From NCBI GenBank assembly GCA_000002445.1, contig CM000208.1, forward strand, positions 480,001-544,000: a stretch of 64,000 nucleotides of DNA, read 5' to 3'. The stretch comes from Trypanosoma brucei. Lineage: Eukaryota. The notes below the pieces were generated by a model that was not told where the DNA came from, did not search any database, and saw nothing but the letters and a program-made list of their open reading frames with translations. The position numbers and the translations under genes were made by a program. Positions 8,132-50,350 of the stretch are shown piece by piece (position 1 is the stretch's first letter; each line of letters starts with the position of its first letter).

Positions 8132-11100
8132 TTGGTAATGGCCACGACGCTGGATGACTTATACCAGTACTACTGCCGACGAAAGGGCTGTAAAGCCAAC
8201 AGCTGTTTCTCCCGTTACCTGATTGAAGAATTTGAGCGTCAAGGGCAAAAGCGCGTACTAGAAACAGTGGATCTGTCTCTGAATTACGTGGGAAGGAAGG
8301 GTATAATACCCGTGTTGGACCTCGTCAAGAATGTCAAAACAATAAAGAAACTAAACCTCAGCAACAATATGTTGGAGCACGAGGAGCTGGAGCATCTTGT
8401 CTACTGCCTCGCCCTTCACCCGTCCGTGGAGGAGGTAGTGCTTGCAAATAATTGCTTTCATGATGCCAGCGTTAAAGTAATTCTCGACCTGTTGGAGTTG
8501 AACGGGGGGATCACTACCTTCGATGTTGATGGTAATGAAATCTCGGCGGCTTCCGTCGCGACAATAGGGGAGCAGCTGGAGAAGAATAGAGCGCGTCGTG
8601 CCGAGAGGGAGAGCGATGCATCCCATCCCTCCTTGCGGCGGTGGAGCAAGGCGCAGATTGAAGGATCGATAGATGAGTTAAACTCGGGTGGCCACATACA
8701 CTTCGGTACCTGGTGGAAGAATCCGCAGTACTTCATGCGGACGTCTGCGGGGTCACAAGTTCGCATTGTCATGGATGTTGAGGACGCTAAGGAGGCACGG
8801 CAAGTTGGTTTCTTTGTCTTTCGCTCAAGCGGCCAGTACAGAGTAGTTGAGCTTAGCGAGGGTGTCATTGCTGGGGAGAGTGCTTGTGACCACAGCCATT
8901 GTTACCTGACAATGTCCGTGGAGGAAAACGAGACGTATTCTGTAATGCCGTACACGTTTTATCCCAGTCGTAGCGTAGGGTTCAGACTCACCGCTGAGAT
9001 GTGTTCTGACGACGCATTAAGCTCGAGGGGATGGATCACCCTTGAGCCTGTAGATCCGGCGGTCGATTGGTGTCTGAGTACTCTGGACGGAGAGTGGACA
9101 GAGGAGTCAGCCGGTGGCTCCCACTTAGAGCACACATGGTGTCGTAACCACATGATTCGGGTGCAGTACGCTGGGTCCGTTCTCACGCACCGAATGGCAG
9201 CACCTGCAACGCTAATTGTGAAACTCAGCAAGGGCGTGGACCCAGATGTTAACGATGAAAAGAGTATCGGATTCCACGTACTGACACCAGACACAGAGGA
9301 GGCGTTGTTGCCCCCAATTTTCTGCAAGGACGAGTGCGTAAAGTGTTTCTGTCCGCACGAGCGTACGACAACTATCAGCGCTTCCTTTGCAGTGTCATGT
9401 ACTGCTCTTCAGCTTTTCATCGCTCCGAGCACACTGAATCCTGGACAGGTGGGAAGTTATAACGTCACGGTTTTTTCCTCTGTACCCGTCACACTATCCT
9501 CGTCGGCGTTTCCCCATGGGTGGCACTACCGAAAGGTTGGTGGCTCGTGGGATGAGTATAACTGTGGAGGCTCTCGAAACGCGAGCATGTCGTGGAAGGC
9601 CAATCCCTCCATTGGCCTGAGCGTCGATTCTAGTCAAGAGCCGTCAGATTTCACAGTCTTCTTGGAGGCAGCTTCGCCCGCTTTACCGTTGGTCGTTCAA
9701 GAAGCTGCGGTGGGAGACGGTGCGTGCTCGCGATCCGCCACGCCTGCTCCAGGGGAGTCGCAGGAAGAAGATCCTGATCTTGTGGAGTTTCTGAGAAGGC
9801 ACAAGGCACACCTCATGGAAGCTTGTGTGTCAGTTATTGAGGCCAAGTCTCCACTTTATCGGGAACTACTCACTTCTGGCTACACAAATGGTTCCTTCGC
9901 CCGTCTTATGGTGCCCGGCCTCAACAAACCGTTTCTTCTTCTTGTCTCAACGAGGCACGCGGGACAATTGGGAACATTTGCGCTTCATATATTTTCCCAC
10001 CGCCCTTTTGTTACCGATGGTGTGGAATCATTATTGGCGCGTGAGCGTGAGGTCCACTTGCAGCAGTATGCACTGGAGAACGAAAAACGGCGAACACTTT
10101 TGTCAGCGGCAAAAACTCAACAGATTAGCTTCGACGGCAGCGAGGATGTGGTTGTTGTGCGCAACGAAATCATTAGGCAATGTATGATTACTGGAGAAAA
10201 GTTTGTTGATCGTGATTTCCCCCGTGGTGGTTCCTCACTTTTTCTTGATCCAGATGCAAAACCCCCGCCAATGTTCCCAAAAGAAACGCATTGGAAGCGA
10301 CCGACCGAGTTAATGGAGAAGGTGGTGTTTCTCCCCGACTGGAAGTGTGACGCCCCGTTCCCGTACTCACGGCGGGAGTGGTTTGCATCTGTTGTTCATG
10401 CCATAGCAACGAAGCCGTTGTGGCTGCAGAATGTAGCAGTTGGGTACAATGAAGGCGAGGGAATGGCCCAATTCCGCTTCTTCAAAGACGGGAAGTGGAA
10501 GGTGGTAACCATCGACGACTATCTTCTCTTTGACAGCACAATGGACCTCTGTATGGGGCGGCCGGGTAAGGATAGTGCAGACATTTTTTTTCCATTGATT
10601 GAAAAGGCGTACGCGAAGGCGCATCGTTGCTACGAGACTCTGGAGCCCAAAGTAACACCGGAATTGGGATTCCTAGAGTTGGTGTGCCAGGGCTTGATGG
10701 ACCTTTCGGGCTGTGCAACAATCAACATCCCTCTCATCGGTAGTGTGCGAATGCCCCAAGAGCAACAGGACGTCATCTGGATGGAAATGAAGAACGCCGT
10801 AAAGCCTAATGTTCTTTGTAGTCTGTTGGTTCGTGGTGACAGTAACGGAGCATCAGAACGCCGTGGACGTGGTATACTGGTTGATCATATATATCCTGTG
10901 TTGGACGCCCGATTTCTAGAGGGGTATCGGCTTGTGAAATTACGACATTGGGGACAACCAGAAGAAATTAACCTGTGCAGCAAGTGGCGGTCTTCAAGCG
11001 ACAAATGGACCGACACCATTCGGCAAACTCTTGAATTCAGGGAGGATGACCGTGAGACGTTTTGGCTATCCTTCGACGAAGTACTGTACTACTTTACTAA

Positions 11101-12922
11101 CCTGCTCATCAACGAAGAGACGTCGAGTGTAAGTTGGGCATCAGGTTATTTCTGTGATTGTCCACCGGGTTGCAACGATCGCCTCCTTGGAAGTTCGCAG
11201 TTCTCCCTCCAACTTGGGGAATTTCCACCGGGGTTGAAGAAGGTAAACATTTTGCTGGGTCTTCATCAACTGGATCCACGGACGACCGTACTACGTGACA
11301 AAGAGGCTGTCGCATCCTACCGTACGGGAGTCGGCCTAGAGGTCGTGGGCACTGCCGACAACACTGTTTGGCTGACTGATTTCTCCAAAGCAGAGGTGCT
11401 GAGCCGTCTGGAACCGTGCATGAAACGAGACGCGCTTTGCCCTTTGACTGTGAGCCTTGACAGCGTCGGAGGAAACAAGCTTCTAACCCTCGTTGTGTTT
11501 AAGGAGGAGATGCGCGCTCCCCACGTGCCATTTCTGCTTTCTGCTTGGTCAGAAACTTGTAAAGTTAATGTTGTGGCTGTGGAACGAAATGCTGCGGTTA
11601 CTGTTTGCGACGAATGGCCTCGTGAATTTGCGATAGGTGGTCCCTCGTCTCCGTTTTGGAGAGATTGTCCACAATATTTCATTTATCCAAGTGATACTAC
11701 AGACATCAACTTTTCCCTCAAGCAGGAGTTGGCCTCCGGTGAAATACCCAAGCCAATTGGCTTCACTGTTCACGATGCTAGAGCGTGCCGAAGCTACTTG
11801 GAGTACAACCCCGAGACCGTCATTCTCTCAGTGGCGGCGAATGCATCCCATAAAGTCGAAGGCACCGTTCGTCTTCTCGGTATGAAGGCAAGGAGGGGAA
11901 TGCCTTATATCATTGTCCCCTTCTGCACGGAGGCTGCTCCTGGGGGGTCGTTTACCCTAGAAGCCGTTGCCAATCGGTTTGTAAAGTTGTGCCGCATAAA
12001 CCCGCAGCTGGACTGGTGTCGTGTGACGAAACATGCCTCATTCATGCTCTCCGATGGGAGTGTTGGGGGGTCGTTGCGTTTTTCGTCATGGCGCAGTAGT
12101 CCGCAATTCGCCTTTACCTTCCCGGTTGGTGGGAAAGGTAGATTGCTTGTTTCTCTTTCTAATGACGACGCGGTCGATACGCGGACTGAAGTCGGCATGA
12201 CTCTCCTACTGGGTGATAGGCAATGGGATGAGGGCAAGCGGAGGAAGTTAGTCGTCTCACAGGGGGACATCATAGCGTGCTCGGAGGAGAACATTGGCCG
12301 TTCTACATTGGACTGTGAGATTGATGTGGAACCCGAGCAGACGCTCATTTTGGTTGTGTACGCCAGTCTCCCGTACCGCGGAGCAGACGTCACTTTCACG
12401 GCGTACTCCGCTTTGCCTGTTGAAGTGGAGCCGGTGAAGGAATGGGAGTACGTTGTTATGGCTCAGGGAAGTTGGGAACTTGGTTACACGGCTGGGGGTG
12501 GTGCTGAAGAGTTCGGTAGCTGGGTGAACAATCCTTTTGTGGCGCTGAATACTTTCCGCCGTACGCAAATTGTAGCTCTCCTTCTTCAGTATCCTCGTGG
12601 TCCAGAGAAACCAGTGGTAAAGCGCGCTGGTAATAAAAAGGCATTTTTACCCCCCGTCATTGTAAACCCAAACAACCGCATGGAGATTGCTATCGACCTA
12701 AACTGTCAGGACGAGAACATGACGAGGATCGCTACCACTCCCTATACACGGAACAGCGAAGTGGCCCTGGTGGCTAATGTCCCTGCGGCAGACTCACTTC
12801 CGTTCGTGTTTGTTCCGCACACAAAGTACCCTGAGGGTAATGGAGAGTACAAATTGTTTGTTTACGCTGATTCTCTTGTGGAGCTTTACCCGTTGGAAAA
12901 GAAGCGCGTGCCGTACGTTTGA
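8132..12922 (+). CDS. Calpain-like protein, probably catalytically inactive, with an N-terminal RNI-type leucine-rich-repeat module
   Basis: 1596 aa. The N-terminus (aa 1-150) carries LRRs (LDLSLNYVGRKGIIPVL..KKLNLSNNMLEHEELEHL..VVLANNCFHDASVKVILDLL). A kinetoplastid calpain-type N-terminal region follows (WWKNPQYFMRTSAGSQVRIVMDV). The central calpain protease-like core reads DRDFPRGGSSLFLDPDAKPPPMFP...EWFASVVHAIATKPLW...VDHIYPVLDA...LVKLRHWGQP. The motifs that align to the calpain Cys (DCWFLAA) and Asn (LRNPWG) read REWFASV and LRHWGQ, so the triad looks substituted. Confidence 0.75.
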   Translation: MVMATTLDDLYQYYCRRKGCKANSCFSRYLIEEFERQGQKRVLETVDLSLNYVGRKGIIPVLDLVKNVKTIKKLNLSNNMLEHEELEHLVYCLALHPSVEEVVLANNCFHDASVKVILDLLELNGGITTFDVDGNEISAASVATIGEQLEKNRARRAERESDASHPSLRRWSKAQIEGSIDELNSGGHIHFGTWWKNPQYFMRTSAGSQVRIVMDVEDAKEARQVGFFVFRSSGQYRVVELSEGVIAGESACDHSHCYLTMSVEENETYSVMPYTFYPSRSVGFRLTAEMCSDDALSSRGWITLEPVDPAVDWCLSTLDGEWTEESAGGSHLEHTWCRNHMIRVQYAGSVLTHRMAAPATLIVKLSKGVDPDVNDEKSIGFHVLTPDTEEALLPPIFCKDECVKCFCPHERTTTISASFAVSCTALQLFIAPSTLNPGQVGSYNVTVFSSVPVTLSSSAFPHGWHYRKVGGSWDEYNCGGSRNASMSWKANPSIGLSVDSSQEPSDFTVFLEAASPALPLVVQEAAVGDGACSRSATPAPGESQEEDPDLVEFLRRHKAHLMEACVSVIEAKSPLYRELLTSGYTNGSFARLMVPGLNKPFLLLVSTRHAGQLGTFALHIFSHRPFVTDGVESLLAREREVHLQQYALENEKRRTLLSAAKTQQISFDGSEDVVVVRNEIIRQCMITGEKFVDRDFPRGGSSLFLDPDAKPPPMFPKETHWKRPTELMEKVVFLPDWKCDAPFPYSRREWFASVVHAIATKPLWLQNVAVGYNEGEGMAQFRFFKDGKWKVVTIDDYLLFDSTMDLCMGRPGKDSADIFFPLIEKAYAKAHRCYETLEPKVTPELGFLELVCQGLMDLSGCATINIPLIGSVRMPQEQQDVIWMEMKNAVKPNVLCSLLVRGDSNGASERRGRGILVDHIYPVLDARFLEGYRLVKLRHWGQPEEINLCSKWRSSSDKWTDTIRQTLEFREDDRETFWLSFDEVLYYFTNLLINEETSSVSWASGYFCDCPPGCNDRLLGSSQFSLQLGEFPPGLKKVNILLGLHQLDPRTTVLRDKEAVASYRTGVGLEVVGTADNTVWLTDFSKAEVLSRLEPCMKRDALCPLTVSLDSVGGNKLLTLVVFKEEMRAPHVPFLLSAWSETCKVNVVAVERNAAVTVCDEWPREFAIGGPSSPFWRDCPQYFIYPSDTTDINFSLKQELASGEIPKPIGFTVHDARACRSYLEYNPETVILSVAANASHKVEGTVRLLGMKARRGMPYIIVPFCTEAAPGGSFTLEAVANRFVKLCRINPQLDWCRVTKHASFMLSDGSVGGSLRFSSWRSSPQFAFTFPVGGKGRLLVSLSNDDAVDTRTEVGMTLLLGDRQWDEGKRRKLVVSQGDIIACSEENIGRSTLDCEIDVEPEQTLILVVYASLPYRGADVTFTAYSALPVEVEPVKEWEYVVMAQGSWELGYTAGGGAEEFGSWVNNPFVALNTFRRTQIVALLLQYPRGPEKPVVKRAGNKKAFLPPVIVNPNNRMEIAIDLNCQDENMTRIATTPYTRNSEVALVANVPAADSLPFVFVPHTKYPEGNGEYKLFVYADSLVELYPLEKKRVPYV

Positions 12923-32535: not shown

Positions 32536-32910
32536 GAGAGGAGTGCGAGTGCGCGTGTTCGTCCGTGTGAGACAATCTAATGAGTTACTAACTTACCTCT
32601 TCGTCATTCACTAGTAAGGATTTGGTTTGGTATTCTAACTTTTTGTGATTCGTATAATCGCTAACGTTTTTGTTTACCTTTTTTTTCTAAAAGACTTTCG
32701 ATGGCTTGGTGCCGCGTCGCACAAACTGGGAATATGTTAAGACGAGAAAGTTTTCATCTGTGCCCTTCGCTTTCCTTTCTCTTATTATCTTTCACTTGCC
32801 CAAAATGAACACAGGACGGAGTGTAATTAGATTGAGTCCGGCGAGTAGTGGTCAAATACGGTTGTTGGGCTGTGTGTTGGTTGTTGGTGTCGCAGGTAAG
32901 TAATTTGGAG

Positions 32911-35900
32911 ATGGCCCAACCGGTGGATCTATGTGAACTGTACAGTTCTTACTGCAAGGAGGAAGGTTGTAAACCAAATACTGCGGTTTTGCAATACATT
33001 ATCGACTGTGGGCGCAGGTATCCACTAGAAAAGTTGATACTGGGTAACAATTACTTGGGACCACGAGGCTTACGACCGATTGTTCGCCTGGTGGACTATT
33101 GTCCAACAATGATGCATCTCAACATCGATGAGAACGGGGCTGATAACGACACCGTATCACTCCTCTGTGATGTGCTAATGACACACAAAGGCATGCAGAC
33201 AATCAGCCTACGCGGTAATCCAATCACGGCCACCGGTGGGAAGAAGTTGCTCGCACTTGCGGAGAAGAACCCTAAAATCACTCATATTGATCTTGATAAC
33301 ACGGACGTTTTTCAGGCACTCTTGTTGAAGATCTACGCCGCAACGAAAGCGAACCGTGATCGGATTGGGAGGGGGGCGGTACACCTTATTCCAACCAGTA
33401 TGGACGAGAAGGAATTAATGGCTATTGTGAGCAGCGCAAATACGAAGATGACACACACGTTTACAGAGAAGCCGGTGATTAGACAACTCCCCAGCGTCAA
33501 AAAGGGTGAGCCAACTCCTGTGGAGAGTTCCGTGTCACCCCGTGTAGTGTCACCGGTGGAGCGCTCAACAACTTTCCCAAAACCTGGTAGGGCCTGGGGT
33601 GGTGGTCAACCTTCCTGTGAAACCAAGTCTCCCCTTGCACGCAGGAAGGGGAGGGCTCGGCCACCTATTCCTCCCATTACGTCTCGTTTGCCGGAGTCTC
33701 AACGACTAGAGTTGCAGAAGGAATACCGTCAAAGGGCAATGATCCTACGCGAAGTGAATACGAGCCAAGCGAGCAAAGTAGCCAATCGCGTTCGTGAAGA
33801 GTTGATGCTATTAGAGCGTAACTTTAGGAGTGAGCCCTCCACCCAACTCGGTTGGAACGTGGAAGCTGCGGGAACGGAGGCCGGAGAAGGTAAGGGGGAC
33901 CACAGTTTCGACCAAGATTTGGAGGCTATTGAAGGATATGTGGACACCAACCAGGAGGAGACGGAGCATGGTGCTCAGCCGCAAATGCAGCATGTAGAGG
34001 AAGGCTCCGCGGATAATAGTCGACCTGAGGGGCTTATAAATCGCTCATCAAATGGTGCTTTCGGCCCTCCACCGAACTTCCGTGAGCCACAGCAGCAAGT
34101 GTTGTTGCGAAGGGATGAAACATCTCCCGAAGTACCATTCGGCAATGCCGGAGGGGTGACTTCGCTGAAGTCCATAAATTTGAGCGCAATTTCCCCATCT
34201 TCTAATAGCCCTGATTTCACTGGGAAAATTGTGTTGCAAAGTGGTACTCCGAACACGAATACGGAGAAGGAGAGCGAAGACAACGTACACACATTTATGG
34301 AGAGTCCTGCTTGGATGACGCTCGGAAGCGGCGAAAAATTGCAGTACCTCTTTAACAGTGGCTGTCGTGCGTACGTAAGCCAGAAGTTTGACACTTCGTA
34401 CATGGCATGGAAGGAGGCAATGTCCATTGCCACTTCAGTGAAGGACAGACAGTGGATGGCAGTGCTTTCTAACAATTTGCAGCGACTGAGCTATGAGATG
34501 CTAGTACGTGAAGGTACCGAGTTCCTAGATGAATTTAAGCTAGAAGATGCGGACGTAGCCTTTCAGCGTGCTCTTGAAGTTGCCCGTAGGGCAAATAACG
34601 CAAAATGGGAGTCAGATATGCATAAAGCACGTCGGGATGTACAGGTGGCTATTTTCCACAAAACTGATGAGGCTGCGTTGCGTATGTTCGAAAAAGCACA
34701 AACCACGGAGCCGCGAAAAGTGACGAGTGACGATTATTTTGTCGTTGCGGGCTCCGATGTACTTATACAGCACACCGAGGCGTACGTGAACGAGTGGGCT
34801 TGCATGTTGCTGGTAAAGGAGGCTGTCGAGTTGTGGGCGGCGGCCATCCGCGTCACTGAGCGAATTGGGGGAACTGCTTCTCATACACTTCAAGTTTCTG
34901 TGAAGGAGTCGCTGACTACAGTTTCGTACTTTCTCGCGCAGAGGTGTTTCGATGTGGAGGACACACAGTCGTTGAGTTGGATGTCCACTTCCCGCTACAA
35001 CTACCATGAGTGTATTATGCTCATCAAACTGTGGACGGACATGACGTCCAGCGCCGATTTTCGCGAAAATCATAAACTCTTCGCAGCCATTGCCGCGGCT
35101 CAGATAGGGAATTTGTACCTAGCTACGAACCAACTGAAAGAGGCGGAGGCGCAGTTCTCAGCGCTTACATCTCTCGGTGAAGAACTTCGTGATTCAATCC
35201 TAATCGCTGCCGGGCACACTTTCCGGGCACTTCTCAACTGGCAGTGTGCGCGGTATCCAGCAGCGGAGGAGCACTTTCGTACGGCCGTAGCGCGTTGGGG
35301 TGCACTACGCGATGTGGTGAGACGGGAACGACTGGAGCAGAACAGCTTCGTTGGAAATACCACTGGTGTCAACTCAACATCAAATTCCAGCAGTAACGTA
35401 GTCGATAGTCTGACCAAGGTGACCACCGGCCGTTATCACGTGGATGGAGTTTCAGATGCTGTGTTTTCCCGCTGTAATGAGTTGTCAAGGCTACTGTTGC
35501 TGCTGCCACGTGGATACGTGTCGATGATGGAGTGTGTCAGCTACAACTACCTTGTTTCGAGTCTCGCATGCAAATACCGATACAGCGAAGCACTGGAGGT
35601 GTTGGAGTGTGGCTTGGTTTGTAAGTATCGTGACATGCTCTTTGACAAGCTCGAGATGAACTTTAGCACTCGGCCTACTTTTGCACAAATCACGGCCACA
35701 CCTTCACTGGTTCACTCACCCCTGGTTTATTATTTGACGACAAGGCGTTATGAATGGAGCTCTACAAAGTGCTCCTACGACGTGGAGGAGAGTTTGCTAA
35801 CGTGGATTGTTCCACAGGTGGGTGACATGCGTTTTATTGAGATCCCTTTGATGAAGGAAATGAAAGTGTTGTCCGTTGACAGTCTTGTGCAGAGGGTGCG

Positions 35901-37128
35901 TAAGTCACTTTTGCTTGCCCCCCTTGATAGGCTGGGAGCAAACAATGCTAGGAGTGGCGGAACCAGCGGTGACTCCTGTGGGGGCGAAAAGGCGGTGGAT
36001 GCACCTGAGATAATTACGGAGCTTCCTAATAAAACATGGGTGGAACCACTCAAGACGCTTTACAACATTTTCATCGAGCCCATTGCAGCCTATATCCGCT
36101 CGTCGGACCCGCGGCTCCTGGCAAAGAACGGTGTCGTAACGATAATTCCCACGGATGGCCTGTGGCTCGTCCCATTCAATGCCCTCATGTCACGGAACGG
36201 GAATTTCGTTATTGAGGACTTTGCTTTTCAGTTGGGGTTCAGCGCTACACAGTGTCGTCTCGCTGCGCTGAGTGCGAAGCGAGTGCAGCAGCGGTGTTTG
36301 TTTCAGAACTTGGTGCTCGTACAAAAACAGGCGGACGCTACCGAGCAGTTGATGTCGCACTTGCTTTTTCCTCTTGATGCTCACCGCTCAGAGAGTGAAG
36401 GTGCTGTAGTCATGCAGACGCTTGCTCAGAACAAGCGGCACGTCCGACACCAGTGTAATTCCTACGTGACAAGCGAGATAACGAGCAGCGAGGTGCTCCT
36501 GCACGACATCGAGAAACTGAAGGAACACTTGCCGCGCAGTCGCACAGTTCATATCGCCGCCTCCACCACAAGCGGCTTTCGGAATGAGGATGCAGGTGGA
36601 GGTGCCATTTGTATAGCGGGGACAAAGGGCGACTTACAACTGTTGCGTTCCTCTGATATTGCGCGCATGGAATTATTCGCTGAGCACGTGATTCTTAGCA
36701 ACGCTAATATGTCACCCTCTGGCATCGTTGGCACGCACGACGATGTACTTTGTCTCACCCGCGGCTTCCTCGCTAGCGGGGTGCCATGCGTTATTACATC
36801 GCAGTGGTGCACACCCGACATGGTGCCAGCGATGCTCTTCTCACGCTTTTACCAACACCAGTCCGCGCCCAATAAACGCACTCGAAGCTCGTTGCTGTCC
36901 CGTGATTCCATTGGACTGCTCCCTGCATCGGGTACTCAACAGAATGCATTGTCTAGGAAGGAGGAGGGGAGTGATCGGTGTAACGACAACTTAAACTGGC
37001 ACAAGGCACTTTTCCTTGCGCAAGCCATCCGGGGGTTATTGGAGGACGACACATTCCGTTACTCACCGCGTTCGTGGGCGGGGTATTATTGCATTGGGTA
37101 CGGGTTGATGCCGCCGGGGGAGGCCTGA
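32911..37128 (+). CDS. Large LRR - TPR-like - CHAT (caspase-like) domain protein, with the catalytic Cys apparently substituted
   Basis: The ORF track gives 32848..37128. ATG 32911 (MAQPVDLCELYSSYCKEEGCKPN...) is the likely start because it aligns with the N-terminus of the 8132 gene product. N-terminal RNI-type LRRs. A long Ser/Pro/Glu-rich linker. Helical TPR-like repeats around aa 520-800. The C-terminal CHAT-like block reads TVHIAASTTSGF...AEHVILSNANMS...GFLASGVPCVITSQWCTPD. The expected LSAC Cys reads LSNAN. Confidence 0.6.
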   Translation: MAQPVDLCELYSSYCKEEGCKPNTAVLQYIIDCGRRYPLEKLILGNNYLGPRGLRPIVRLVDYCPTMMHLNIDENGADNDTVSLLCDVLMTHKGMQTISLRGNPITATGGKKLLALAEKNPKITHIDLDNTDVFQALLLKIYAATKANRDRIGRGAVHLIPTSMDEKELMAIVSSANTKMTHTFTEKPVIRQLPSVKKGEPTPVESSVSPRVVSPVERSTTFPKPGRAWGGGQPSCETKSPLARRKGRARPPIPPITSRLPESQRLELQKEYRQRAMILREVNTSQASKVANRVREELMLLERNFRSEPSTQLGWNVEAAGTEAGEGKGDHSFDQDLEAIEGYVDTNQEETEHGAQPQMQHVEEGSADNSRPEGLINRSSNGAFGPPPNFREPQQQVLLRRDETSPEVPFGNAGGVTSLKSINLSAISPSSNSPDFTGKIVLQSGTPNTNTEKESEDNVHTFMESPAWMTLGSGEKLQYLFNSGCRAYVSQKFDTSYMAWKEAMSIATSVKDRQWMAVLSNNLQRLSYEMLVREGTEFLDEFKLEDADVAFQRALEVARRANNAKWESDMHKARRDVQVAIFHKTDEAALRMFEKAQTTEPRKVTSDDYFVVAGSDVLIQHTEAYVNEWACMLLVKEAVELWAAAIRVTERIGGTASHTLQVSVKESLTTVSYFLAQRCFDVEDTQSLSWMSTSRYNYHECIMLIKLWTDMTSSADFRENHKLFAAIAAAQIGNLYLATNQLKEAEAQFSALTSLGEELRDSILIAAGHTFRALLNWQCARYPAAEEHFRTAVARWGALRDVVRRERLEQNSFVGNTTGVNSTSNSSSNVVDSLTKVTTGRYHVDGVSDAVFSRCNELSRLLLLLPRGYVSMMECVSYNYLVSSLACKYRYSEALEVLECGLVCKYRDMLFDKLEMNFSTRPTFAQITATPSLVHSPLVYYLTTRRYEWSSTKCSYDVEESLLTWIVPQVGDMRFIEIPLMKEMKVLSVDSLVQRVRKSLLLAPLDRLGANNARSGGTSGDSCGGEKAVDAPEIITELPNKTWVEPLKTLYNIFIEPIAAYIRSSDPRLLAKNGVVTIIPTDGLWLVPFNALMSRNGNFVIEDFAFQLGFSATQCRLAALSAKRVQQRCLFQNLVLVQKQADATEQLMSHLLFPLDAHRSESEGAVVMQTLAQNKRHVRHQCNSYVTSEITSSEVLLHDIEKLKEHLPRSRTVHIAASTTSGFRNEDAGGGAICIAGTKGDLQLLRSSDIARMELFAEHVILSNANMSPSGIVGTHDDVLCLTRGFLASGVPCVITSQWCTPDMVPAMLFSRFYQHQSAPNKRTRSSLLSRDSIGLLPASGTQQNALSRKEEGSDRCNDNLNWHKALFLAQAIRGLLEDDTFRYSPRSWAGYYCIGYGLMPPGEA

Positions 37129-38356: not shown

Positions 38357-40477
38357 ATGACCGATAATAAGGTTCTCTACGTTGGTTGCGTTGTTGTCAC
38401 CCTGAAAGAGGTTCGCGTCTGCGGGAAGCAGCTGGAGTGTGAAGCGACCCGCAGTGGTGGCGCCCAGTTCTGCGTGCGTACTGCCGTGGCCGTGGCAGAG
38501 ACTGCAAACCACAGCATACATGAGCGTTTCTGTGAGCGCGTCAACTCCAGCATATACTCCTTTAAAAACAGCACGATGATGGAACAAATGGTGGTACCGG
38601 TGATGCTGTTGCGTTCCCCATCAACCATCGCCACGATGAACGGGAGCAAACACAATGACAAGGTCAATACCAACGGTAGTGCCGATCGCGTCAGGAATGG
38701 TAACAGCGATGTGACTGATCTGGGAGCGAACGGGGAGGATATGGATGTAGGGCTAGATCTGTTTTTGGATATCAGTTTCTTGCATGGAGAATCTATGGTA
38801 TGGAGTCTGCGACGCCGAGTTGAGGTGGAGTCATTGGACGCAATCGCCTCGCAGAATTGTGGAGTTGCAGTTGCGCGCGTGAGTACCGATGTCCTGCAAA
38901 GCAACGGTGTGTTGCCGACTTCAGAGGCTGTACGGGGCGGTTCCGCCGCGTGTGATGCCAGCGATGGACGTGAGGATGATGAATGGTCAGGGTTAGAGTT
39001 GCACGTCATTGTGCGGTCCATGGACATGTCCGAGCCGATTCGGCTGATGGTTGCCGCAGAGCGGGAGGCGAGCGCGTTTCTGGACTTACCTCAGAGAGAA
39101 CCCCAAACAGTATTCTTGTTACCGCTGCGGCATGCCATGCCATACAACGCGCTTCCGCTTGAGGTACTGTACCAGTTTTATTGCTGTTTCTATGAGTATT
39201 TCTTTAACAAGCCTGTTAAAGTCTTTGGGCACGTGGTGAATATGCTGCGTACCCGGCAACCTGGTGGAATGGGTGACAACAAAACACGCGGTGGTGCTGT
39301 TACAGAAGGACGCTGGAGCGAGTTACGCTCCGCTGACCTACGTCCCTTACTTCTCGGTGAAGATGCATTAGCGCCGGTACTGGCCACACTGTTTCACTGC
39401 CCAGGGTTACGTGAGTTACTGTTGGACCAAAACAGTTTGAGTGATATAACGTGCTACCGTATTAGATCCCTGTTTTACCGCCACCGCCACTTAGAGACGC
39501 TGTCCATCGCAAGGAATAATATACATGAGGGTGGCGGCGAGCAGCTTGTGCGCCTCATACGTCGGAACAAGCGTCTTATTGATGTGAAAGCCTCTGGCAA
39601 CCATTTCACGCACTCTATGTCGTCGCGGATCCAGCGTGTGGCGAGTCTCAACGAGGAGTACATAAGGGGGGACCCTTACAATGTCTTTTCATCTGCGTAT
39701 TCGTATGTTGTGTCTCCCACATCGTTCCCGGCTAGCATTATAAAACAAGCACTAGCTGTTTGGGCGATGCTCTCAGCGGCGCCGGTAAGCACGGTAATTG
39801 TAGACTGCGTCCCTAACAGCACTTTTGGGATAGACTTAATGGGTTCTCCCAACAATATGAAAAGCAACGGTTCCCTCCACGGCTCTGCACTTGACAACGG
39901 TGTTGTGGAAGCTACTGATAAGGCGTTGGAGTCCAGCCAAGCTACTTCAATTCCCCATTGTGCGCTCTCGCCTCTCCTGAATGAAGTGATGCGGACTGTT
40001 GCACTACGAATGTCGTCCATTTTACACGACCCGTGGGCACTCCTTGTGTTCTCTGATATTGAAAGTCATTGGGAACGGTGCACCATAACACTGAGGGAAC
40101 AGAAGGAAAAATGCAGCAAACAGGACGCCCAGGCCGCCGCAGACGGGCGAGAAGATGGGCCTGCAAGCATAAGACATGGTGAGGCAGCGTTGTGCGAGGT
40201 GGAGGACTTGTACGCCATATCATTTCTTCACCTTGTGGTAGTGACAATGCGAGCCGTTGGAAGGGCAATGGACTGGGAAGACGCGTCTTCGGTGCTTCGC
40301 GATATTGGAAGGAAGCAGATGGCTATAGGCATTTTAGAAGAAAACTACCGTGATGCTATCCAGATCTTTGTCCAGTCACTTGCAGTGGTGTGTGGGAAAG
40401 ACGAAGCTGACGTTGAGCACTCCGCAGCATTCCTTCAGTGCCTCGCCTTAGGCGTCAGGACTGCAGTAGCAGCGTAA
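38357..40477 (+). CDS. Hypothetical protein with an RNI-like LRR segment
   Basis: 706 aa. The LRR stretch reads LRELLLDQNSLSDITCYRIRSLFYRHRHLETLSIARNNIHEGGGEQLVRLIRRNKRLIDVKASGNHF. The rest has no recognisable domain. Confidence 0.5.
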   Translation: MTDNKVLYVGCVVVTLKEVRVCGKQLECEATRSGGAQFCVRTAVAVAETANHSIHERFCERVNSSIYSFKNSTMMEQMVVPVMLLRSPSTIATMNGSKHNDKVNTNGSADRVRNGNSDVTDLGANGEDMDVGLDLFLDISFLHGESMVWSLRRRVEVESLDAIASQNCGVAVARVSTDVLQSNGVLPTSEAVRGGSAACDASDGREDDEWSGLELHVIVRSMDMSEPIRLMVAAEREASAFLDLPQREPQTVFLLPLRHAMPYNALPLEVLYQFYCCFYEYFFNKPVKVFGHVVNMLRTRQPGGMGDNKTRGGAVTEGRWSELRSADLRPLLLGEDALAPVLATLFHCPGLRELLLDQNSLSDITCYRIRSLFYRHRHLETLSIARNNIHEGGGEQLVRLIRRNKRLIDVKASGNHFTHSMSSRIQRVASLNEEYIRGDPYNVFSSAYSYVVSPTSFPASIIKQALAVWAMLSAAPVSTVIVDCVPNSTFGIDLMGSPNNMKSNGSLHGSALDNGVVEATDKALESSQATSIPHCALSPLLNEVMRTVALRMSSILHDPWALLVFSDIESHWERCTITLREQKEKCSKQDAQAAADGREDGPASIRHGEAALCEVEDLYAISFLHLVVVTMRAVGRAMDWEDASSVLRDIGRKQMAIGILEENYRDAIQIFVQSLAVVCGKDEADVEHSAAFLQCLALGVRTAVAA

Positions 40478-45888: not shown

Positions 45889-47304
45889 ATGTCTAGACGC
45901 CTAAACAATATCCTCGAACACATCTCGATCCAGGGAAATGATGGTGAGACTGTGCGTGCCGTTAAGCGTGATGTTGCAATGGCAGCGCTGACCAACCAAT
46001 TCACAATGAGTGTCGAGTCTATGCGACAGATCATGACATACCTCCTGTACGAGATGGTGGAGGGTCTTGAGGGTCGTGAAAGCACCGTCCGCATGTTACC
46101 ATCTTATGTATACAAGGCGGACCCTAAGCGTGCTACTGGCGTCTTCTACGCACTTGACCTCGGTGGTACCAACTTCCGTGTGCTGCGCGTTGCATGCAAG
46201 GAGGGTGCCGTGGTGGATTCCTCTACTTCTGCATTCAAGATTCCCAAATATGCCCTTGAGGGTAACGCCACCGATCTGTTTGGCTTCATTGCATCCAATG
46301 TGAAGAAAACCATGGAAACTCGTGCACCTGAGGACCTCAATCGCACAGTTCCTCTTGGGTTTACCTTCAGTTTCCCCGTGGAGCAGACGAAGGTTAACCG
46401 TGGTGTGCTTATCCGGTGGACGAAGGGCTTCAGCACGAAAGGCGTTCAAGGAAATGATGTGATTGCCCTTCTTCAGGCTGCTTTTGGGCGAGTGAGCTTG
46501 AAGGTGAATGTTGTGGCGTTGTGCAACGACACTGTTGGAACATTAATTTCGCATTACTTTAAGGACCCTGAGGTACAGGTTGGTGTGATTATCGGCACTG
46601 GTTCCAATGCGTGCTACTTTGAGACGGCGTCTGCTGTGACGAAGGACCCTGCCGTTGCTGCTCGTGGGTCAGCACTTACTCCCATCAATATGGAAAGCGG
46701 CAACTTTGACTCCAAGTACCGGTTTGTCCTCCCTACGACGAAGTTCGACTTGGATATTGACGATGCGTCGTTGAACAAAGGTCAACAGGCGCTGGAGAAG
46801 ATGATATCCGGCATGTACCTCGGCGAAATCGCCCGCCGCGTTATTGTGCACCTGTCGTCTATTAACTGCCTTCCTGCGGCACTGCAGACTGCTTTGGGCA
46901 ACCGGGGGTCGTTTGAGTCCCGATTTGCCGGGATGATCAGTGCTGACCGTATGCCCGGACTTCAGTTCACTCGCAGCACGATCCAGAAGGTGTGTGGTGT
47001 TGACGTGCAGTCAATTGAAGACCTTCGCATCATTCGCGATGTGTGCCGCCTTGTCCGTGGGAGGGCTGCGCAACTCTCTGCTTCCTTCTGCTGCGCTCCA
47101 CTGGTTAAGACTCAAACACAGGGCCGTGCAACTATTGCAATTGACGGCTCCGTGTTTGAGAAGATTCCGTCATTCCGCCGCGTCTTGCAGGACAACATCA
47201 ACCGTATCCTTGGCCCTGAGTGCGATGTCAGGGCCGTTCTCGCAAAGGATGGCAGTGGAATTGGTGCTGCATTTATTTCCGCAATGGTGGTGAACGACAA
47301 GTAA
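45889..47304 (+). CDS. HK: Hexokinase, tandem copy 1
   Basis: 471 aa. Hexokinase motifs ALDLGGTNFRVLRV, LGFTFSFPVEQT and IGTGSNACYFE. The N-terminal MSRRLNNILEHI fits a PTS2 (R-L-x5-H-I) glycosomal signal. The C-terminal tail is ...AKDGSGIGAAFISAMVVNDK. Confidence 0.95.
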   Translation: MSRRLNNILEHISIQGNDGETVRAVKRDVAMAALTNQFTMSVESMRQIMTYLLYEMVEGLEGRESTVRMLPSYVYKADPKRATGVFYALDLGGTNFRVLRVACKEGAVVDSSTSAFKIPKYALEGNATDLFGFIASNVKKTMETRAPEDLNRTVPLGFTFSFPVEQTKVNRGVLIRWTKGFSTKGVQGNDVIALLQAAFGRVSLKVNVVALCNDTVGTLISHYFKDPEVQVGVIIGTGSNACYFETASAVTKDPAVAARGSALTPINMESGNFDSKYRFVLPTTKFDLDIDDASLNKGQQALEKMISGMYLGEIARRVIVHLSSINCLPAALQTALGNRGSFESRFAGMISADRMPGLQFTRSTIQKVCGVDVQSIEDLRIIRDVCRLVRGRAAQLSASFCCAPLVKTQTQGRATIAIDGSVFEKIPSFRRVLQDNINRILGPECDVRAVLAKDGSGIGAAFISAMVVNDK

Positions 47305-48600: not shown

Positions 48601-50350
48601 CACCCACACATTGTTTATGCTGCTGCTTTGCGCTGAACACTTTAAGGCAACGTATGAGGTCTTCATTAGGTGTGACGGGGATCTGTTGTCGTTACTGTCC
48701 TTGTGTGATGTTGTTGCTTCTCTTAATTCCTTTCTTTCCCCCCTTTCTGCTTGCACCGGTGCAATACTGCCGTGTGGATCGATACGCCATAAGAAAGCAA
48801 TACAAACACAAATAAGTTATATAAAAAACTCTATTTATTACTAAAGCCAAAACCCCGAGACACATATCATTTCCAGTATAAAGGAAAAAGATATCAGCGT
48901 AAGTTTATCACCTCGATATTGGAACGTCCGAGTAATGTCTAGACGCCTAAACAATATCCTCGAACACATCTCGATCCAGGGAAATGATGGTGAGACTGTG
49001 CGTGCCGTTAAGCGTGATGTTGCAATGGCAGCGCTGACCAACCAATTCACAATGAGTGTGGAGTCTATGCGACAGATCATGACATACCTCCTGTACGAGA
49101 TGGTGGAGGGTCTTGAGGGTCGTGAAAGCACCGTCCGCATGTTACCATCTTATGTATACAAGGCGGACCCTAAGCGTGCTACTGGCGTCTTCTACGCACT
49201 TGACCTCGGTGGTACCAACTTCCGTGTGCTGCGCGTTGCATGCAAGGAGGGTGCCGTGGTGGATTCCTCTACTTCTGCATTCAAGATTCCCAAATATGCC
49301 CTTGAGGGTAACGCCACCGATCTGTTTGACTTCATTGCATCCAATGTGAAGAAAACCATGGAAACTCGTGCACCTGAGGACCTCAATCGCACAGTTCCTC
49401 TTGGGTTTACCTTCAGTTTCCCCGTGGAGCAGACGAAGGTTAACCGTGGTGTGCTTATCCGGTGGACGAAGGGCTTCAGCACGAAAGGCGTTCAAGGAAA
49501 TGATGTGATTGCCCTTCTTCAGGCTGCTTTTGGGCGAGTGAGCTTGAAGGTGAATGTTGTGGCGTTGTGCAACGACACTGTTGCCACGATGATTTCGCAT
49601 TACTTTAAGGACCCTGAGGTACAGGTTGGTGTGATTATCGGCACTGGTTCCAATGCGTGCTACTTTGAGACGGCGTCTGCTGTGACGAAGGACCCTGCCG
49701 TTGCTGCTCGTGGGTCAGCACTTACTCCCATCAGTATGGAAAGCGGCAACTTTGACTCCAAGTACCGGTTTGTCCTCCCTACGACGAAGTTCGACTTGGA
49801 TATTGACGATGCGTCGTTGAACAAAGGTCAACAGGCGCTGGAGAAGATGATATCCGGCATGTACCTCGGCGAAATCGCCCGCCGCGTTATTGTGCACCTG
49901 TCGTCTATTAACTGCCTTCCTGCGGCACTGCAGACTGCTTTGGGCAACCGGGGGTCGTTTGAGTCCCGATTTGCCGGGATGATCAGTGCTGACCGTATGC
50001 CCGGACTTCAGTTCACTCGCAGCACGATCCAGAAGGTGTGTGGTGTTGACGTGCAGTCAATTGAAGACCTTCGCATCATTCGCGATGTGTGCCGCCTTGT
50101 CCGTGGGAGGGCTGCGCAACTCTCTGCTTCCTTCTGCTGCGCTCCACTGGTTAAGACTCAAACACAGGGCCGTGCAACTATTGCAATTGACGGCTCCGTG
50201 TTTGAGAAGATTCCGTCATTCCGCCGCGTCTTGCAGGACAACATCAACCGTATCCTTGGCCCTGAGTGCGATGTCAGGGCCGTTCTCGCAAAGGGTGGCA
50301 GTGGTGTCGGTGCGGCACTTATCTCCGCTATCGTTGCTGACGGGAAGTGA
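48601..50350 (+). repeat. Tandem duplication unit, copy 2 (hexokinase 5' flank + CDS)
   Basis: See copy 1. The spacer between the copies (47305-48600) is unique sequence. Confidence 0.9.
48935..50350 (+). CDS. HK: Hexokinase, tandem copy 2
   Basis: 471 aa, nearly identical to copy 1. Internal differences: G131D, TVGTL to TVATM, INM to ISM. The C-terminal tail differs: ...AKGGSGVGAALISAIVADGK. Same PTS2-like N-terminus. Confidence 0.95.
   Translation: MSRRLNNILEHISIQGNDGETVRAVKRDVAMAALTNQFTMSVESMRQIMTYLLYEMVEGLEGRESTVRMLPSYVYKADPKRATGVFYALDLGGTNFRVLRVACKEGAVVDSSTSAFKIPKYALEGNATDLFDFIASNVKKTMETRAPEDLNRTVPLGFTFSFPVEQTKVNRGVLIRWTKGFSTKGVQGNDVIALLQAAFGRVSLKVNVVALCNDTVATMISHYFKDPEVQVGVIIGTGSNACYFETASAVTKDPAVAARGSALTPISMESGNFDSKYRFVLPTTKFDLDIDDASLNKGQQALEKMISGMYLGEIARRVIVHLSSINCLPAALQTALGNRGSFESRFAGMISADRMPGLQFTRSTIQKVCGVDVQSIEDLRIIRDVCRLVRGRAAQLSASFCCAPLVKTQTQGRATIAIDGSVFEKIPSFRRVLQDNINRILGPECDVRAVLAKGGSGVGAALISAIVADGK

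What the first reader, a model, noticed from the sequence alone, without database searches (positions are those of the whole stretch)
8132..12922. Calpain-like protein with substituted catalytic triad and an N-terminal LRR module paralogous to the LRR-TPR-CHAT gene
The calpain core is recognisable, but the positions aligning to the Cys and Asn of the triad read E (REWFASV) and H (LRHWGQ). The His motif (DHIYPV for GHAYSV) is retained. The first about 110 aa align closely with the N-terminus of the 32911 gene product: L-x-[DE]-LY-x-x-YC-x-x-x-GCK-x-N ... NY[VL]G-x-[KR]G-x-x-P-[IV]-x-x-LV. So two different effector scaffolds, calpain-like and CHAT-like, share the same N-terminal LRR cap within 25 kb. 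That suggests a shared targeting or interaction module.
Basis: seen in the sequence. Interest (0 to 1): 0.5.

Follow-up and report, generated by a model that had tools for sequence, protein, structure and literature searches.

The report
Dead trypanosome calpain with LRR head
This is the annotated Trypanosoma brucei "calpain, putative" gene, a large calpain-like protein that has lost its catalytic cysteine (a known trait of trypanosome calpains); its N-terminal leucine-rich-repeat head is truly homologous to the head of a nearby CHAT protein, which also turns out to be catalytically dead.

Summary
Both observations are confirmed. The window is T. brucei TREU927 chromosome 10. The gene (ATG 8138..12922) encodes XP_822445.1 "calpain, putative" exactly. 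HMM alignment to rat m-calpain puts E747 at the catalytic Cys and H937 at Asn, and keeps H917 at His. No ortholog (29 trypanosomatids) has Cys there. The first ~155 aa are a four-repeat RNI-type LRR with a two-helix cap (AF2 pLDDT 95.7). They align collinearly with the N-terminus of the CHAT gene at 32911 (30% identity, E=1e-20). The similarity exceeds generic LRR similarity, and cap-only profiles cross-detect the families.

Most of this is known. Triad loss in kinetoplastid calpains is textbook. The "RNI-like, CBSW, CysPc" architecture is tabulated for the T. cruzi ortholog (PMC7552305).

New here:
- A second LRR-calpain family carries the same module.
- The CHAT protein lacks its His/Cys dyad (S1218, A1265), so all three module-bearing families are pseudoproteases.
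- The residues shared across families are LRR core positions, not the concave binding face. Common descent is supported; a shared ligand is not.

Function (non-catalytic scaffold) is inferred. Low-to-moderate interest.

The parts
8138..12922 (+). Gene A: CDS of the calpain-like pseudopeptidase (1594 aa, 178 kDa; XP_822445.1 'calpain, putative', T. brucei TREU927 chr10; probably Tb927.10.1890 by gene order)
   Evidence: gene order
8138..8608 (+). N-terminal module, aa 1-157: two-helix cap (H5-15, H22-34), four 28-residue RNI-type LRRs (strands at aa 43, 71, 99, 127) and a closing helix (137-157)
   Evidence: AF2 model pLDDT 95.7; PDB sequence and fold hits to RNI-type LRRs; most conserved segment of the protein across 29 orthologs
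8642..9037 (+). CBSW (calpain domain III-like beta-sandwich) repeat 1, aa 169-300
   Evidence: Pfam Calpain_III E=5.6e-4 on the segment; internal-repeat HMMs and GG..W..NP signature
9071..9487 (+). CBSW repeat 2, aa 312-450
   Evidence: Pfam Calpain_III, best stretch 317-446
9530..10057 (+). CBSW repeat 3, aa 465-640, with a poorly conserved insert around aa 501-550
   Evidence: weak Calpain_III hit; cross-matches between repeat HMMs; conservation profile
10202..11110 (+). CysPc (Peptidase_C2) core, aa 689-991, catalytically degenerate
   Evidence: Pfam E=1.6e-33; PDB calpain alignments
10376..10378 (+). E747 (GAG) at the position of the catalytic Cys
10886..10888 (+). H917 (CAT), the retained catalytic-His position
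10946..10948 (+). H937 (CAT) at the position of the catalytic Asn
11657..11965 (+). CBSW-like repeat 4, aa about 1174-1276 (boundaries approximate)
   Evidence: match of the repeat-1 HMM, iE 1.3e-6, and W..CP signature at aa 1174
12047..12403 (+). CBSW-like repeat 5, aa about 1304-1422 (boundaries approximate)
   Evidence: match of the repeat-1 HMM, iE 5.8e-8, and W..SP signature at aa 1318
12458..12919 (+). CBSW repeat 6, aa 1441-1594
   Evidence: Pfam Calpain_III E=1.1e-4; repeat HMM matches
32911..37128 (+). Gene B: LRR-(helical)-CHAT protein, 1405 aa (XP_822452.1 'hypothetical protein, conserved'; probably Tb927.10.1970 by gene order)
32911..33369 (+). Gene B N-terminal module, aa 1-153, homologous to aa 1-157 of gene A
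36043..37098 (+). Gene B CHAT domain, aa 1045-1396, lacking the caspase-like dyad (S1218 at nt 36562-36564 for His; A1265 at nt 36703-36705 for Cys)
   Evidence: Pfam CHAT E=9.4e-58; alignment to six cyanobacterial TPR-CHAT proteins

Best explanation
Gene A is the T. brucei member of a trypanosomatid-wide orthogroup of large, non-classical, non-catalytic calpain-like proteins. Its architecture is: capped 4-repeat RNI-type LRR, three CBSW beta-sandwiches, a degenerate CysPc core, then three more CBSW-like sandwiches.

The nucleophile was lost before trypanosomatids radiated. The protein therefore most likely acts as a protein-binding scaffold, like the characterised cytoskeletal trypanosome calpain-like proteins. 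The LRR head, the CBSW domains and the dead substrate cleft would all serve as interaction surfaces.

The about 155-aa head is one specific homologous module. By ancient domain shuffling it came to sit at the extreme N-terminus of three protease-fold families, all of them dead: this calpain, a second shorter LRR-CysPc-CBSW calpain family, and the LRR-CHAT protein 25 kb downstream.

Shown: gene identity, architecture, residue substitutions, orthogroup-wide loss of Cys, and homology of the modules. Inferred: the non-catalytic scaffold function, the shuffling scenario, and family-specific partners.
For: - Identity: the window protein is identical to XP_822445.1.
- Domains.
- Triad mapping against solved calpains.
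- Orthologs: in all 29 orthologs (Trypanosoma, Leishmaniinae, Phytomonas and deeper lineages) the Cys column reads E/D/H/A/N/Q/T and never C. The His column is R in Leishmaniinae. The Asn column is H, N or L. The fold and the LRR stay conserved; aa 51-100 is the best-conserved block at 0.76.
- LRR fold: AF2 model pLDDT 95.7 with a 28-aa period; fold and sequence neighbours are RNI-type LRRs.
- Module homology: 30% identity over 155 aa, E=1e-20; 15 invariant columns across 18 sequences of the two families. The A-only HMM scores B at 75-87 bits and family C at 87-96 bits over the full length at the N-terminus, against 65 bits or less for generic LRRs without the cap. Cap-only HMMs cross-detect A, B and C, and none of the 146 generic LRR proteins appeared in the output.
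- Family C (P0030, P0031): LRR then CysPc then CBSW, with Cys to Ser and His to Ser.
- Gene B: bacterial HxATHG / LSACxTG aligns with HIAAST / LSNANM.
- Literature: triad loss and non-proteolytic, cytoskeletal roles of trypanosomatid calpains (PMC7912814, PMC3563603, PMC4121973). The 'RNI-like, CBSW, CysPc, RPT1' architecture at 179.71 kDa with no conserved triad appears in T. cruzi (PMC7552305 Table I). The T. cruzi ortholog P0006 computes to 179.58 kDa.
Against: - No experimental data on this gene (localisation, RNAi, partners) were found in the searchable literature.
- Loss of activity is inferred from residues only. The reviews note that triad substitutions do not always abolish activity.
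- The Trypanosoma-specific E/D-H-H combination is conserved in all 7 Trypanosoma species, so a different chemistry cannot be excluded.
- The direction and number of shuffling events are unresolved. The three modules are roughly equidistant at 27-32% identity.
- A proteome-wide census of the module could not be completed, because the profile search was swamped by generic LRR proteins.
Confidence: 0.78

Rival explanations
1. The shared LRR head is a common targeting or interaction module that brings the calpain-like and CHAT-like proteins (and the second LRR-calpain) to the same partner or cellular site.
For: The same module sits at the same position (extreme N-terminus) in three families. It is the most conserved part of gene A. 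Its closest solved relatives are LRR proteins docked on axonemal or actin structures, namely DRC5, LRRC34, trypanosomatid doublet-microtubule LRRPs, tropomodulin and CARMIL.
Against: Cross-family conserved residues are LRR core or structural positions. At the 20 concave-face positions the family consensus residues rarely agree: 0.45 of 3 pairwise matches, against 1.56 of 3 at core positions. Within each family these positions are conserved (0.55-0.82), which is the pattern expected for different ligands. No localisation or interaction data were found. Gene proximity is uninformative in polycistronic units.
Confidence: 0.15
2. The N-terminal resemblance is only generic RNI-type LRR similarity (repeat consensus) and not specific homology of a module.
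For: The profile of the module hits 47,345 proteins at E<=1e-3, mostly giant RNI-type LRR proteins. Part of the 'cap' (GCKPN plus helix 2) aligns to an ordinary RNI repeat, 'nC.lt..c..L'.
Against: Generic LRRs match only profile positions of about 32-150 and score 65 bits or less. The B and C families score 75-96 bits over positions 3-153, always at the N-terminus and with the same repeat number. Cap-only HMMs built from one family find the others at 11-23 bits, and none of the 146 generic LRR proteins appeared in the output. Only one indel separates the families over 155 aa.
Confidence: 0.04
3. The core is not dead but repurposed. In Trypanosoma the E/D-H-H residues at the three triad positions form a 2-His-1-carboxylate-type metal site with a new catalytic or metal-sensing role.
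For: All 7 Trypanosoma orthologs have E/D, H, H at the three positions. These positions are spatially adjacent in active calpain (established calpain structural knowledge; PDB entries).
Against: The pattern is not conserved outside Trypanosoma: H-R-N in Leishmania and H/N/A-H-N elsewhere. Within-genus conservation is expected anyway at about 60% overall identity. No structural model of this core was made and no biochemical data exist.
Confidence: 0.03

Closest known systems
Kinetoplastid calpain-like proteins (Ersfeld et al. 2005 classification; T. cruzi 'RNI-like, CBSW, CysPc, RPT1' class in Ennes-Vidal et al. 2020, PMC7552305)
   Same: The gene is an ortholog of the T. cruzi 1592-aa protein (60% identity; 179.58 vs 179.71 kDa). 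It has the same RNI-like + CBSW + CysPc architecture and no conserved triad. It is trypanosomatid-wide.
   Different: Nothing essential differs. The literature lists the architecture only in a table. It does not describe the cap, the six CBSW repeats, or the relation to the CHAT protein.
Classical calpains (m-calpain / CAPN2, PDB 1df0, 1mdw)
   Same: The CysPc fold is recognisable end to end (E about 1e-14, aa 26-339 of the core segment). CBSW/domain III-like sandwiches are present. His and the flanking Trp are retained.
   Different: Cys becomes Glu and Asn becomes His. There is no penta-EF-hand domain (no Pfam hit). An N-terminal LRR is present, and six CBSW repeats flank the core instead of one C-terminal to it.
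CAP5.5 / ClpGM6 / H49: cytoskeletal trypanosome calpain-like proteins (PMC4121973, PMC3214072)
   Same: They are calpain-like proteins with degenerate triads that act structurally at the cytoskeleton or flagellum attachment zone. This is the functional analogy used for the proposed mechanism.
   Different: Those proteins carry DUF1935 or long repeat arrays rather than an LRR head. No localisation is known to me for this gene.
Short RNI-type LRR domains: tropomodulin/leiomodin ABS2, NLRP1 LRR, CARMIL, axonemal DRC5/LRRC34 and trypanosomatid doublet-microtubule LRRPs
   Same: They share the 28-residue alpha/beta repeats and a small capped 4-5-repeat solenoid (Foldseek E 8e-6 to 1e-3, TM-score normalised to the query 0.55-0.69; phmmer E to 5e-9).
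   Different: Sequence matches cover only aa of about 39-151. The first cap helix (LxxLYxxYC) has no detectable match in the PDB.
Bacterial TPR-CHAT proteins (cyanobacterial plasmid-encoded; caspase-like clan CD)
   Same: Gene B's C-terminal domain aligns over about 350 aa at 23-29% identity, E to 1e-18. A helical region precedes CHAT.
   Different: The HG His and the SAC Cys of the dyad are replaced (S/A and A/T). An RNI-type LRR head is added. The protein is eukaryotic.

Membership tests
Calpain family (MEROPS C2 / Pfam Peptidase_C2) | CysPc core recognisable by the family HMM above the gathering threshold | tested here: met
   116.5 bits against a cutoff of 23.8, profile positions 1-295 of 297
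Calpain family (MEROPS C2 / Pfam Peptidase_C2) | Catalytic Cys nucleophile | tested here: not met
   E747 aligns to C105 of m-calpain. None of the 29 orthologs has Cys.
Calpain family (MEROPS C2 / Pfam Peptidase_C2) | Catalytic His and Asn | tested here: not met
   His is retained (H917) but Asn becomes H937. His is Arg in Leishmaniinae.
Classical calpains | C-terminal penta-EF-hand Ca2+-binding domain | tested here: not met
   No EF-hand family appears in the Pfam scan at E<=0.1
Kinetoplastid calpain-like proteins, 'RNI-like, CBSW, CysPc' class | N-terminal RNI-like LRR followed by CBSW and CysPc, without a conserved triad; orthology to the T. cruzi chr5 179.7-kDa protein | tested here: met
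   Architecture. 60% identity over 100% coverage to T. cruzi 'putative calpain' of 1592 aa. Mass match to PMC7552305 Table I.
Kinetoplastid calpain-like proteins, groups 1-3 (DUF1935-bearing) | N-terminal DUF1935 domain | tested here: not met
   No DUF1935 hit in the Pfam scan
RNI-type (ribonuclease-inhibitor-like) LRR | 28-29-residue repeats with a beta-strand plus alpha-helix, LxxLxLxxN/C core | tested here: met
   The AF2 model has strands every 28 residues. Best PDB hits are RNI, NLRP, DRC5 and LRRC34.
CHAT domain, caspase-like clan CD (gene B) | Pfam CHAT HMM match | tested here: met
   196.4 bits against a cutoff of 24
CHAT domain, caspase-like clan CD (gene B) | His (HG motif) and Cys (SAC motif) catalytic dyad | tested here: not met
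   Six cyanobacterial TPR-CHAT proteins read HxATHG / LSACxTG. Gene B reads HIAAST / LSNANM, and its orthologs have A or S and T or A at these positions. That these two motifs carry the dyad rests on established knowledge of the caspase fold and was not tested here.

The most novel reading that the evidence does not exclude
A single, specifically related, capped 4-repeat LRR head marks a small trypanosomatid set of pseudoproteases from two unrelated protease clans: two calpain-like families (clan CA) and one CHAT family (clan CD). This non-random association of 'LRR head plus dead protease body' would reflect a common functional logic, for example LRR-docked decoy or substrate-trap scaffolds acting on a shared cytoskeletal or flagellar structure or pathway.
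Probability: 0.2. Interest if true: 0.5.

Novelty: already known. Interest (0 to 1): 0.25.

Why it matters
The gene is an annotated T. brucei calpain-like protein. Its degenerate triad and RNI-like + calpain architecture match what is already published for trypanosomatid calpains, so the core of the finding adds little.

The incremental value is comparative. The same capped LRR module heads three catalytically dead protease-fold families, including a CHAT protein for which I found no prior description in the literature available to me. This gives cell biologists a concrete, testable grouping: tag, swap or delete the LRR head in the three proteins. It also adds examples to the growing list of pseudoenzymes in kinetoplastids. 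It does not open a long-standing question.

Tried and rejected
1. A word-indexed homology search with the 175-aa N-terminus of gene B returned nothing, not even the protein itself. It cost one of three searches.
2. The exhaustive profile search of the module against 1.84 billion representatives was swamped by giant multi-repeat RNI-type LRR proteins: 47,345 hits, with the top 150 nearly all matching profile positions of about 32-150 only. It could not serve as a census of the capped module. I used its top hits only as a negative control set.
3. A cap-only profile against the PDB found no hit at E<=10. The cap + LRR1 profile gave only marginal N-terminal matches (LRRC34 at E=0.06, others at 0.02-0.06). 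My recollection that LRRC34/45/74-type proteins have a similar 'Y..C...G..P' cap therefore remains an untested lead.
4. Foldseek against afdb50, which would have surveyed the T. brucei AlphaFold proteome, was unavailable.
5. The AF2 model of the gene B CHAT domain from 6 sequences failed (pLDDT 33.7) and was not used. PDB sequence searches with the CHAT domain found nothing. The dyad was instead mapped against cyanobacterial TPR-CHAT proteins fetched by tblastn.
6. The metagenome scan with a 3-family alignment recovered only one generic, uncapped RNI-LRR protein.
7. Literature searches for gene IDs around Tb927.10.1890 and Tb927.10.1970 found no paper on either gene. Ersfeld et al. 2005 is not held.
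8. Recent gene conversion or local duplication is rejected as an explanation of the similarity. The modules share only 30% identity, while each is 40-73% identical to its own orthologs.
9. The precomputed Pfam family PF27087 on some A and C orthologs is absent from my Pfam copy and could not be identified.
Full report
**What the window is.** All large ORFs lie on the + strand and GC is about 50%. The protein encoded at 8138..12922 is identical to XP_822445.1 / EAN77617.1 / Q38C53, "calpain, putative", of Trypanosoma brucei brucei TREU927, on a 4.05-Mb contig. The protein at 32911..37128 is identical to XP_822452.1 / Q38C46, "hypothetical protein, conserved / CHAT domain-containing". The neighbours are:
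- a WD40 protein
- mitochondrial topoisomerase IA (Tb927.10.1900 according to PMC10719067)
- two protein kinases
- an LRR protein
- a PUF protein
- the major vault protein (Tb927.10.1990 per PMC12547018)
- an actin-like protein
- the tandem hexokinases
- a PPR protein and another kinase

By gene order the calpain is probably Tb927.10.1890 and the CHAT gene Tb927.10.1970. This is inferred, not verified. The window is an ordinary stretch of a trypanosome polycistronic unit, so gene neighbourhood says little about function.

**Check of the observation.** The tool's ORF begins at a TTG (8132) because it uses the bacterial code. The real start is ATG 8138. Pfam finds Peptidase_C2 at aa 689-991 (E=1.6e-33) and Calpain_III. 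phmmer against the PDB aligns the core with rat and human calpains (E about 1e-14). At residue level E747 falls on the catalytic Cys (the C105S position of 1mdw), H917 on the catalytic His, and H937 on the catalytic Asn, with the following Pro deleted. The quoted strings REWFASV, DHIYPV and LRHWGQ are all present. The N-terminal 155 aa align with the N-terminus of the 32911 product at 30% identity, E=1e-20, with two small gaps. The motif LY..YC...GCK.N occurs only in these two ORFs of the window.

**Anatomy of gene A.** An AlphaFold2 model of aa 1-158, built on 18 module sequences, is very confident (pLDDT 95.7). It shows two cap helices (5-15, 22-34), four beta-strands exactly 28 residues apart (43, 71, 99, 127), each followed by a helix, and a long closing helix (137-157). 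This is a short RNI-type LRR solenoid.

Sequence and fold neighbours in the PDB are RNase inhibitor, NLRP LRRs, CARMIL, tropomodulin/leiomodin, and axonemal LRR proteins: DRC5/TCTE1, LRRC34 and the LRRPs of the T. brucei and L. tarentolae doublet microtubule. These match only from about aa 39 onward. The second half of the "cap" (GCKxN plus helix 2) aligns to an ordinary RNI repeat and is a degenerate half-repeat. The first helix has no detectable PDB relative.

After the head come three calpain-domain-III-like beta-sandwiches (aa 169-300, 312-450, 465-640), then the CysPc core. Three more sandwiches follow (about 1174-1276, about 1304-1422, 1441-1594). Each sandwich opens with a GG....W..NP-like signature. 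There is no penta-EF-hand and no DUF1935 domain.

**Evolution of gene A.** Twenty-nine full-length orthologs were recovered from Trypanosoma (59-63% identity), Phytomonas, Leishmania, Leptomonas, Porcisia and deeper unnamed lineages (33-42%). All carry the LRR head, and aa 51-100 of the head is the best-conserved block of the protein. The nucleophile column is never Cys: it reads E or D in Trypanosoma, H in Leishmaniinae, and H/A/N/Q/T elsewhere. The His column is Arg in Leishmaniinae. The Asn column is His in Trypanosoma, Asn in most others and Leu in some. The nucleophile was therefore lost before the radiation of trypanosomatids. The triad positions have since drifted while the fold stayed under selection, which is the signature of a pseudoenzyme.

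**Is the shared head specific?** A profile of the module hits 47,345 proteins at E<=1e-3 among 1.84 billion representatives. The top hits are giant RNI-type LRR proteins that nearly all match positions of about 32-150 only, so the repeat part is generic.
- An HMM built from the calpain family alone scores the CHAT family at 75-87 bits and a third family at 87-96 bits. Coverage is HMM positions 3-153, always at the protein N-terminus. The best generic LRR stretch in the control set scores 65 bits, most score 52 or less, and none includes the cap.
- Cap-only HMMs built from one family detect the other families at 11-23 bits at the correct N-terminal positions. None of the 146 control proteins appeared in the output.
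- Fifteen columns are invariant across 18 sequences of the two families.

I conclude that the heads are homologous as a unit: cap, four repeats and closing helix.

**A third family.** Two weak hits of the first search, P0030 (1190 aa) and P0031 (L. martiniquensis LSCM1_03820, 1355 aa), matched gene A mainly through their N-termini. They carry the same head (31-32% identity to both A and B, E=1e-18 to 1e-21), followed directly by CysPc and CBSW. In P0030 the catalytic Cys and His are both Ser. This corresponds to the "RNI-like, CysPc, CBSW" class listed for T. cruzi, again without a conserved triad (PMC7552305).

**The CHAT partner is also dead.** Gene B has a strong CHAT domain (E=9.4e-58). 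No solved structure matched by sequence and the AF2 model failed. I therefore fetched six cyanobacterial plasmid TPR-CHAT proteins that match it by tblastn (E to 1e-18) and aligned them. The bacterial proteins read HxATHG and LSACxTG at the two caspase-like motifs. Gene B reads HIAAST and LSNANM (S1218 and A1265), and its Trypanosoma orthologs have A/S and T/A. That these motifs hold the His-Cys dyad is established knowledge of the caspase/CHAT fold and was not tested here. All three families bearing this head are thus pseudoproteases, from two unrelated protease clans.

**Does the head imply a shared partner?** I classified the 36 positions of the four LxxLxLxxN strands as core or concave-face. 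The family consensus residues agree far more at core positions (1.56 of 3 pairwise matches) than at exposed positions (0.45 of 3). Exposed positions are nonetheless conserved within each family (0.55-0.82). This is what common descent with diverged, family-specific binding faces would give. It does not support one common ligand, although binding through another surface cannot be excluded.

**Comparison with what is known.** Loss of catalytic residues in most trypanosomatid calpains, and their structural or cytoskeletal roles, are well documented (Ersfeld et al. 2005 as cited in PMC7912814; PMC3563603; PMC4121973; PMC3214072). [quoted passage not shown] The T. cruzi ortholog found here computes to 179.58 kDa. 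The gene, its dead triad and its LRR head are therefore already known, if only at the level of a table entry. I found no paper on the trypanosome LRR-CHAT protein or on the relation between the heads.

**Mechanism.** The most likely reading is a non-catalytic, multi-domain interaction scaffold (confidence about 0.78 for identity plus pseudoenzyme status; the functional part is inference). Rivals are:
- a truly shared targeting head (0.15)
- merely generic LRR similarity (0.04)
- a repurposed E-H-H metal site in Trypanosoma (0.03)

**Verdict.** The core of the finding is already known biology of an annotated gene. The small new points are the three-family distribution of one capped LRR module and the fact that all its carriers, including the CHAT protein, are dead proteases. 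Interest 0.25.

Noticed in passing
window 36043-37098 (gene B CHAT domain; S1218 at 36562-36564, A1265 at 36703-36705): The CHAT domain of the LRR-CHAT protein lacks both residues of the caspase-like His/Cys dyad. It reads HIAAST / LSNANM where cyanobacterial TPR-CHAT proteins read HxATHG / LSACxTG. The substitutions are shared by its Trypanosoma orthologs, so it is a second pseudoprotease.
   Followed up: yes
P0030 (locus L002:96-3668) and P0031 (L. martiniquensis LSCM1_03820); not in the window: A second, shorter calpain-like family (LRR head, then CysPc, then CBSW; 1190-1355 aa) carries the same capped N-terminal module. It has Ser at the Cys and His positions. It probably equals the T. cruzi 'RNI-like, CysPc, CBSW' class.
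   Followed up: partly
window 27780-29951 and 38357-40477: Two further LRR proteins lie in the same 64-kb window. One is 723 aa with LRR_4/LRR_6 hits. The other is 706 aa and matches the gene B module at E=7.7e-9, but only over internal repeats and without the cap. They look like generic RNI/other LRR proteins, not carriers of the module.
   Followed up: partly
window 45889-47304 and 48935-50350: Tandem pair of 471-aa hexokinase genes (Pfam Hexokinase_1/_2), consistent with T. brucei HK1/HK2. This helped anchor the locus on chromosome 10.
   Followed up: partly
window 8132-8140 and 32848-32913: The bacterial-code ORF caller starts both genes upstream of the true ATG (TTG 8132 vs ATG 8138; GTG 32848 vs ATG 32911).
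   Followed up: yes
gene A orthologs, columns of aa 747 / 917 / 937: The three triad positions show clade-specific fixed combinations: E/D-H-H in all 7 Trypanosoma, H-R-N in Leishmania, H-R-L in Leptomonas-like sequences. This may be simple phylogenetic inertia or clade-specific reuse of the cleft.
   Followed up: partly
precomputed annotation of P0001, P0008, P0009, P0018-P0028, P0031: A Pfam accession, PF27087.1, is attached to many orthologs of gene A and to the family C protein, but not to the CHAT family. It is absent from the Pfam copy available here, so what it covers is unknown.
   Followed up: no
window 1-64000: Every ORF of 200 aa or more with a domain hit is on the + strand, and GC skew is positive in all but the last 2-kb bin (cumulative skew rises steadily to 2.7). 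This is the strand asymmetry expected inside a single trypanosome polycistronic transcription unit.
   Followed up: no
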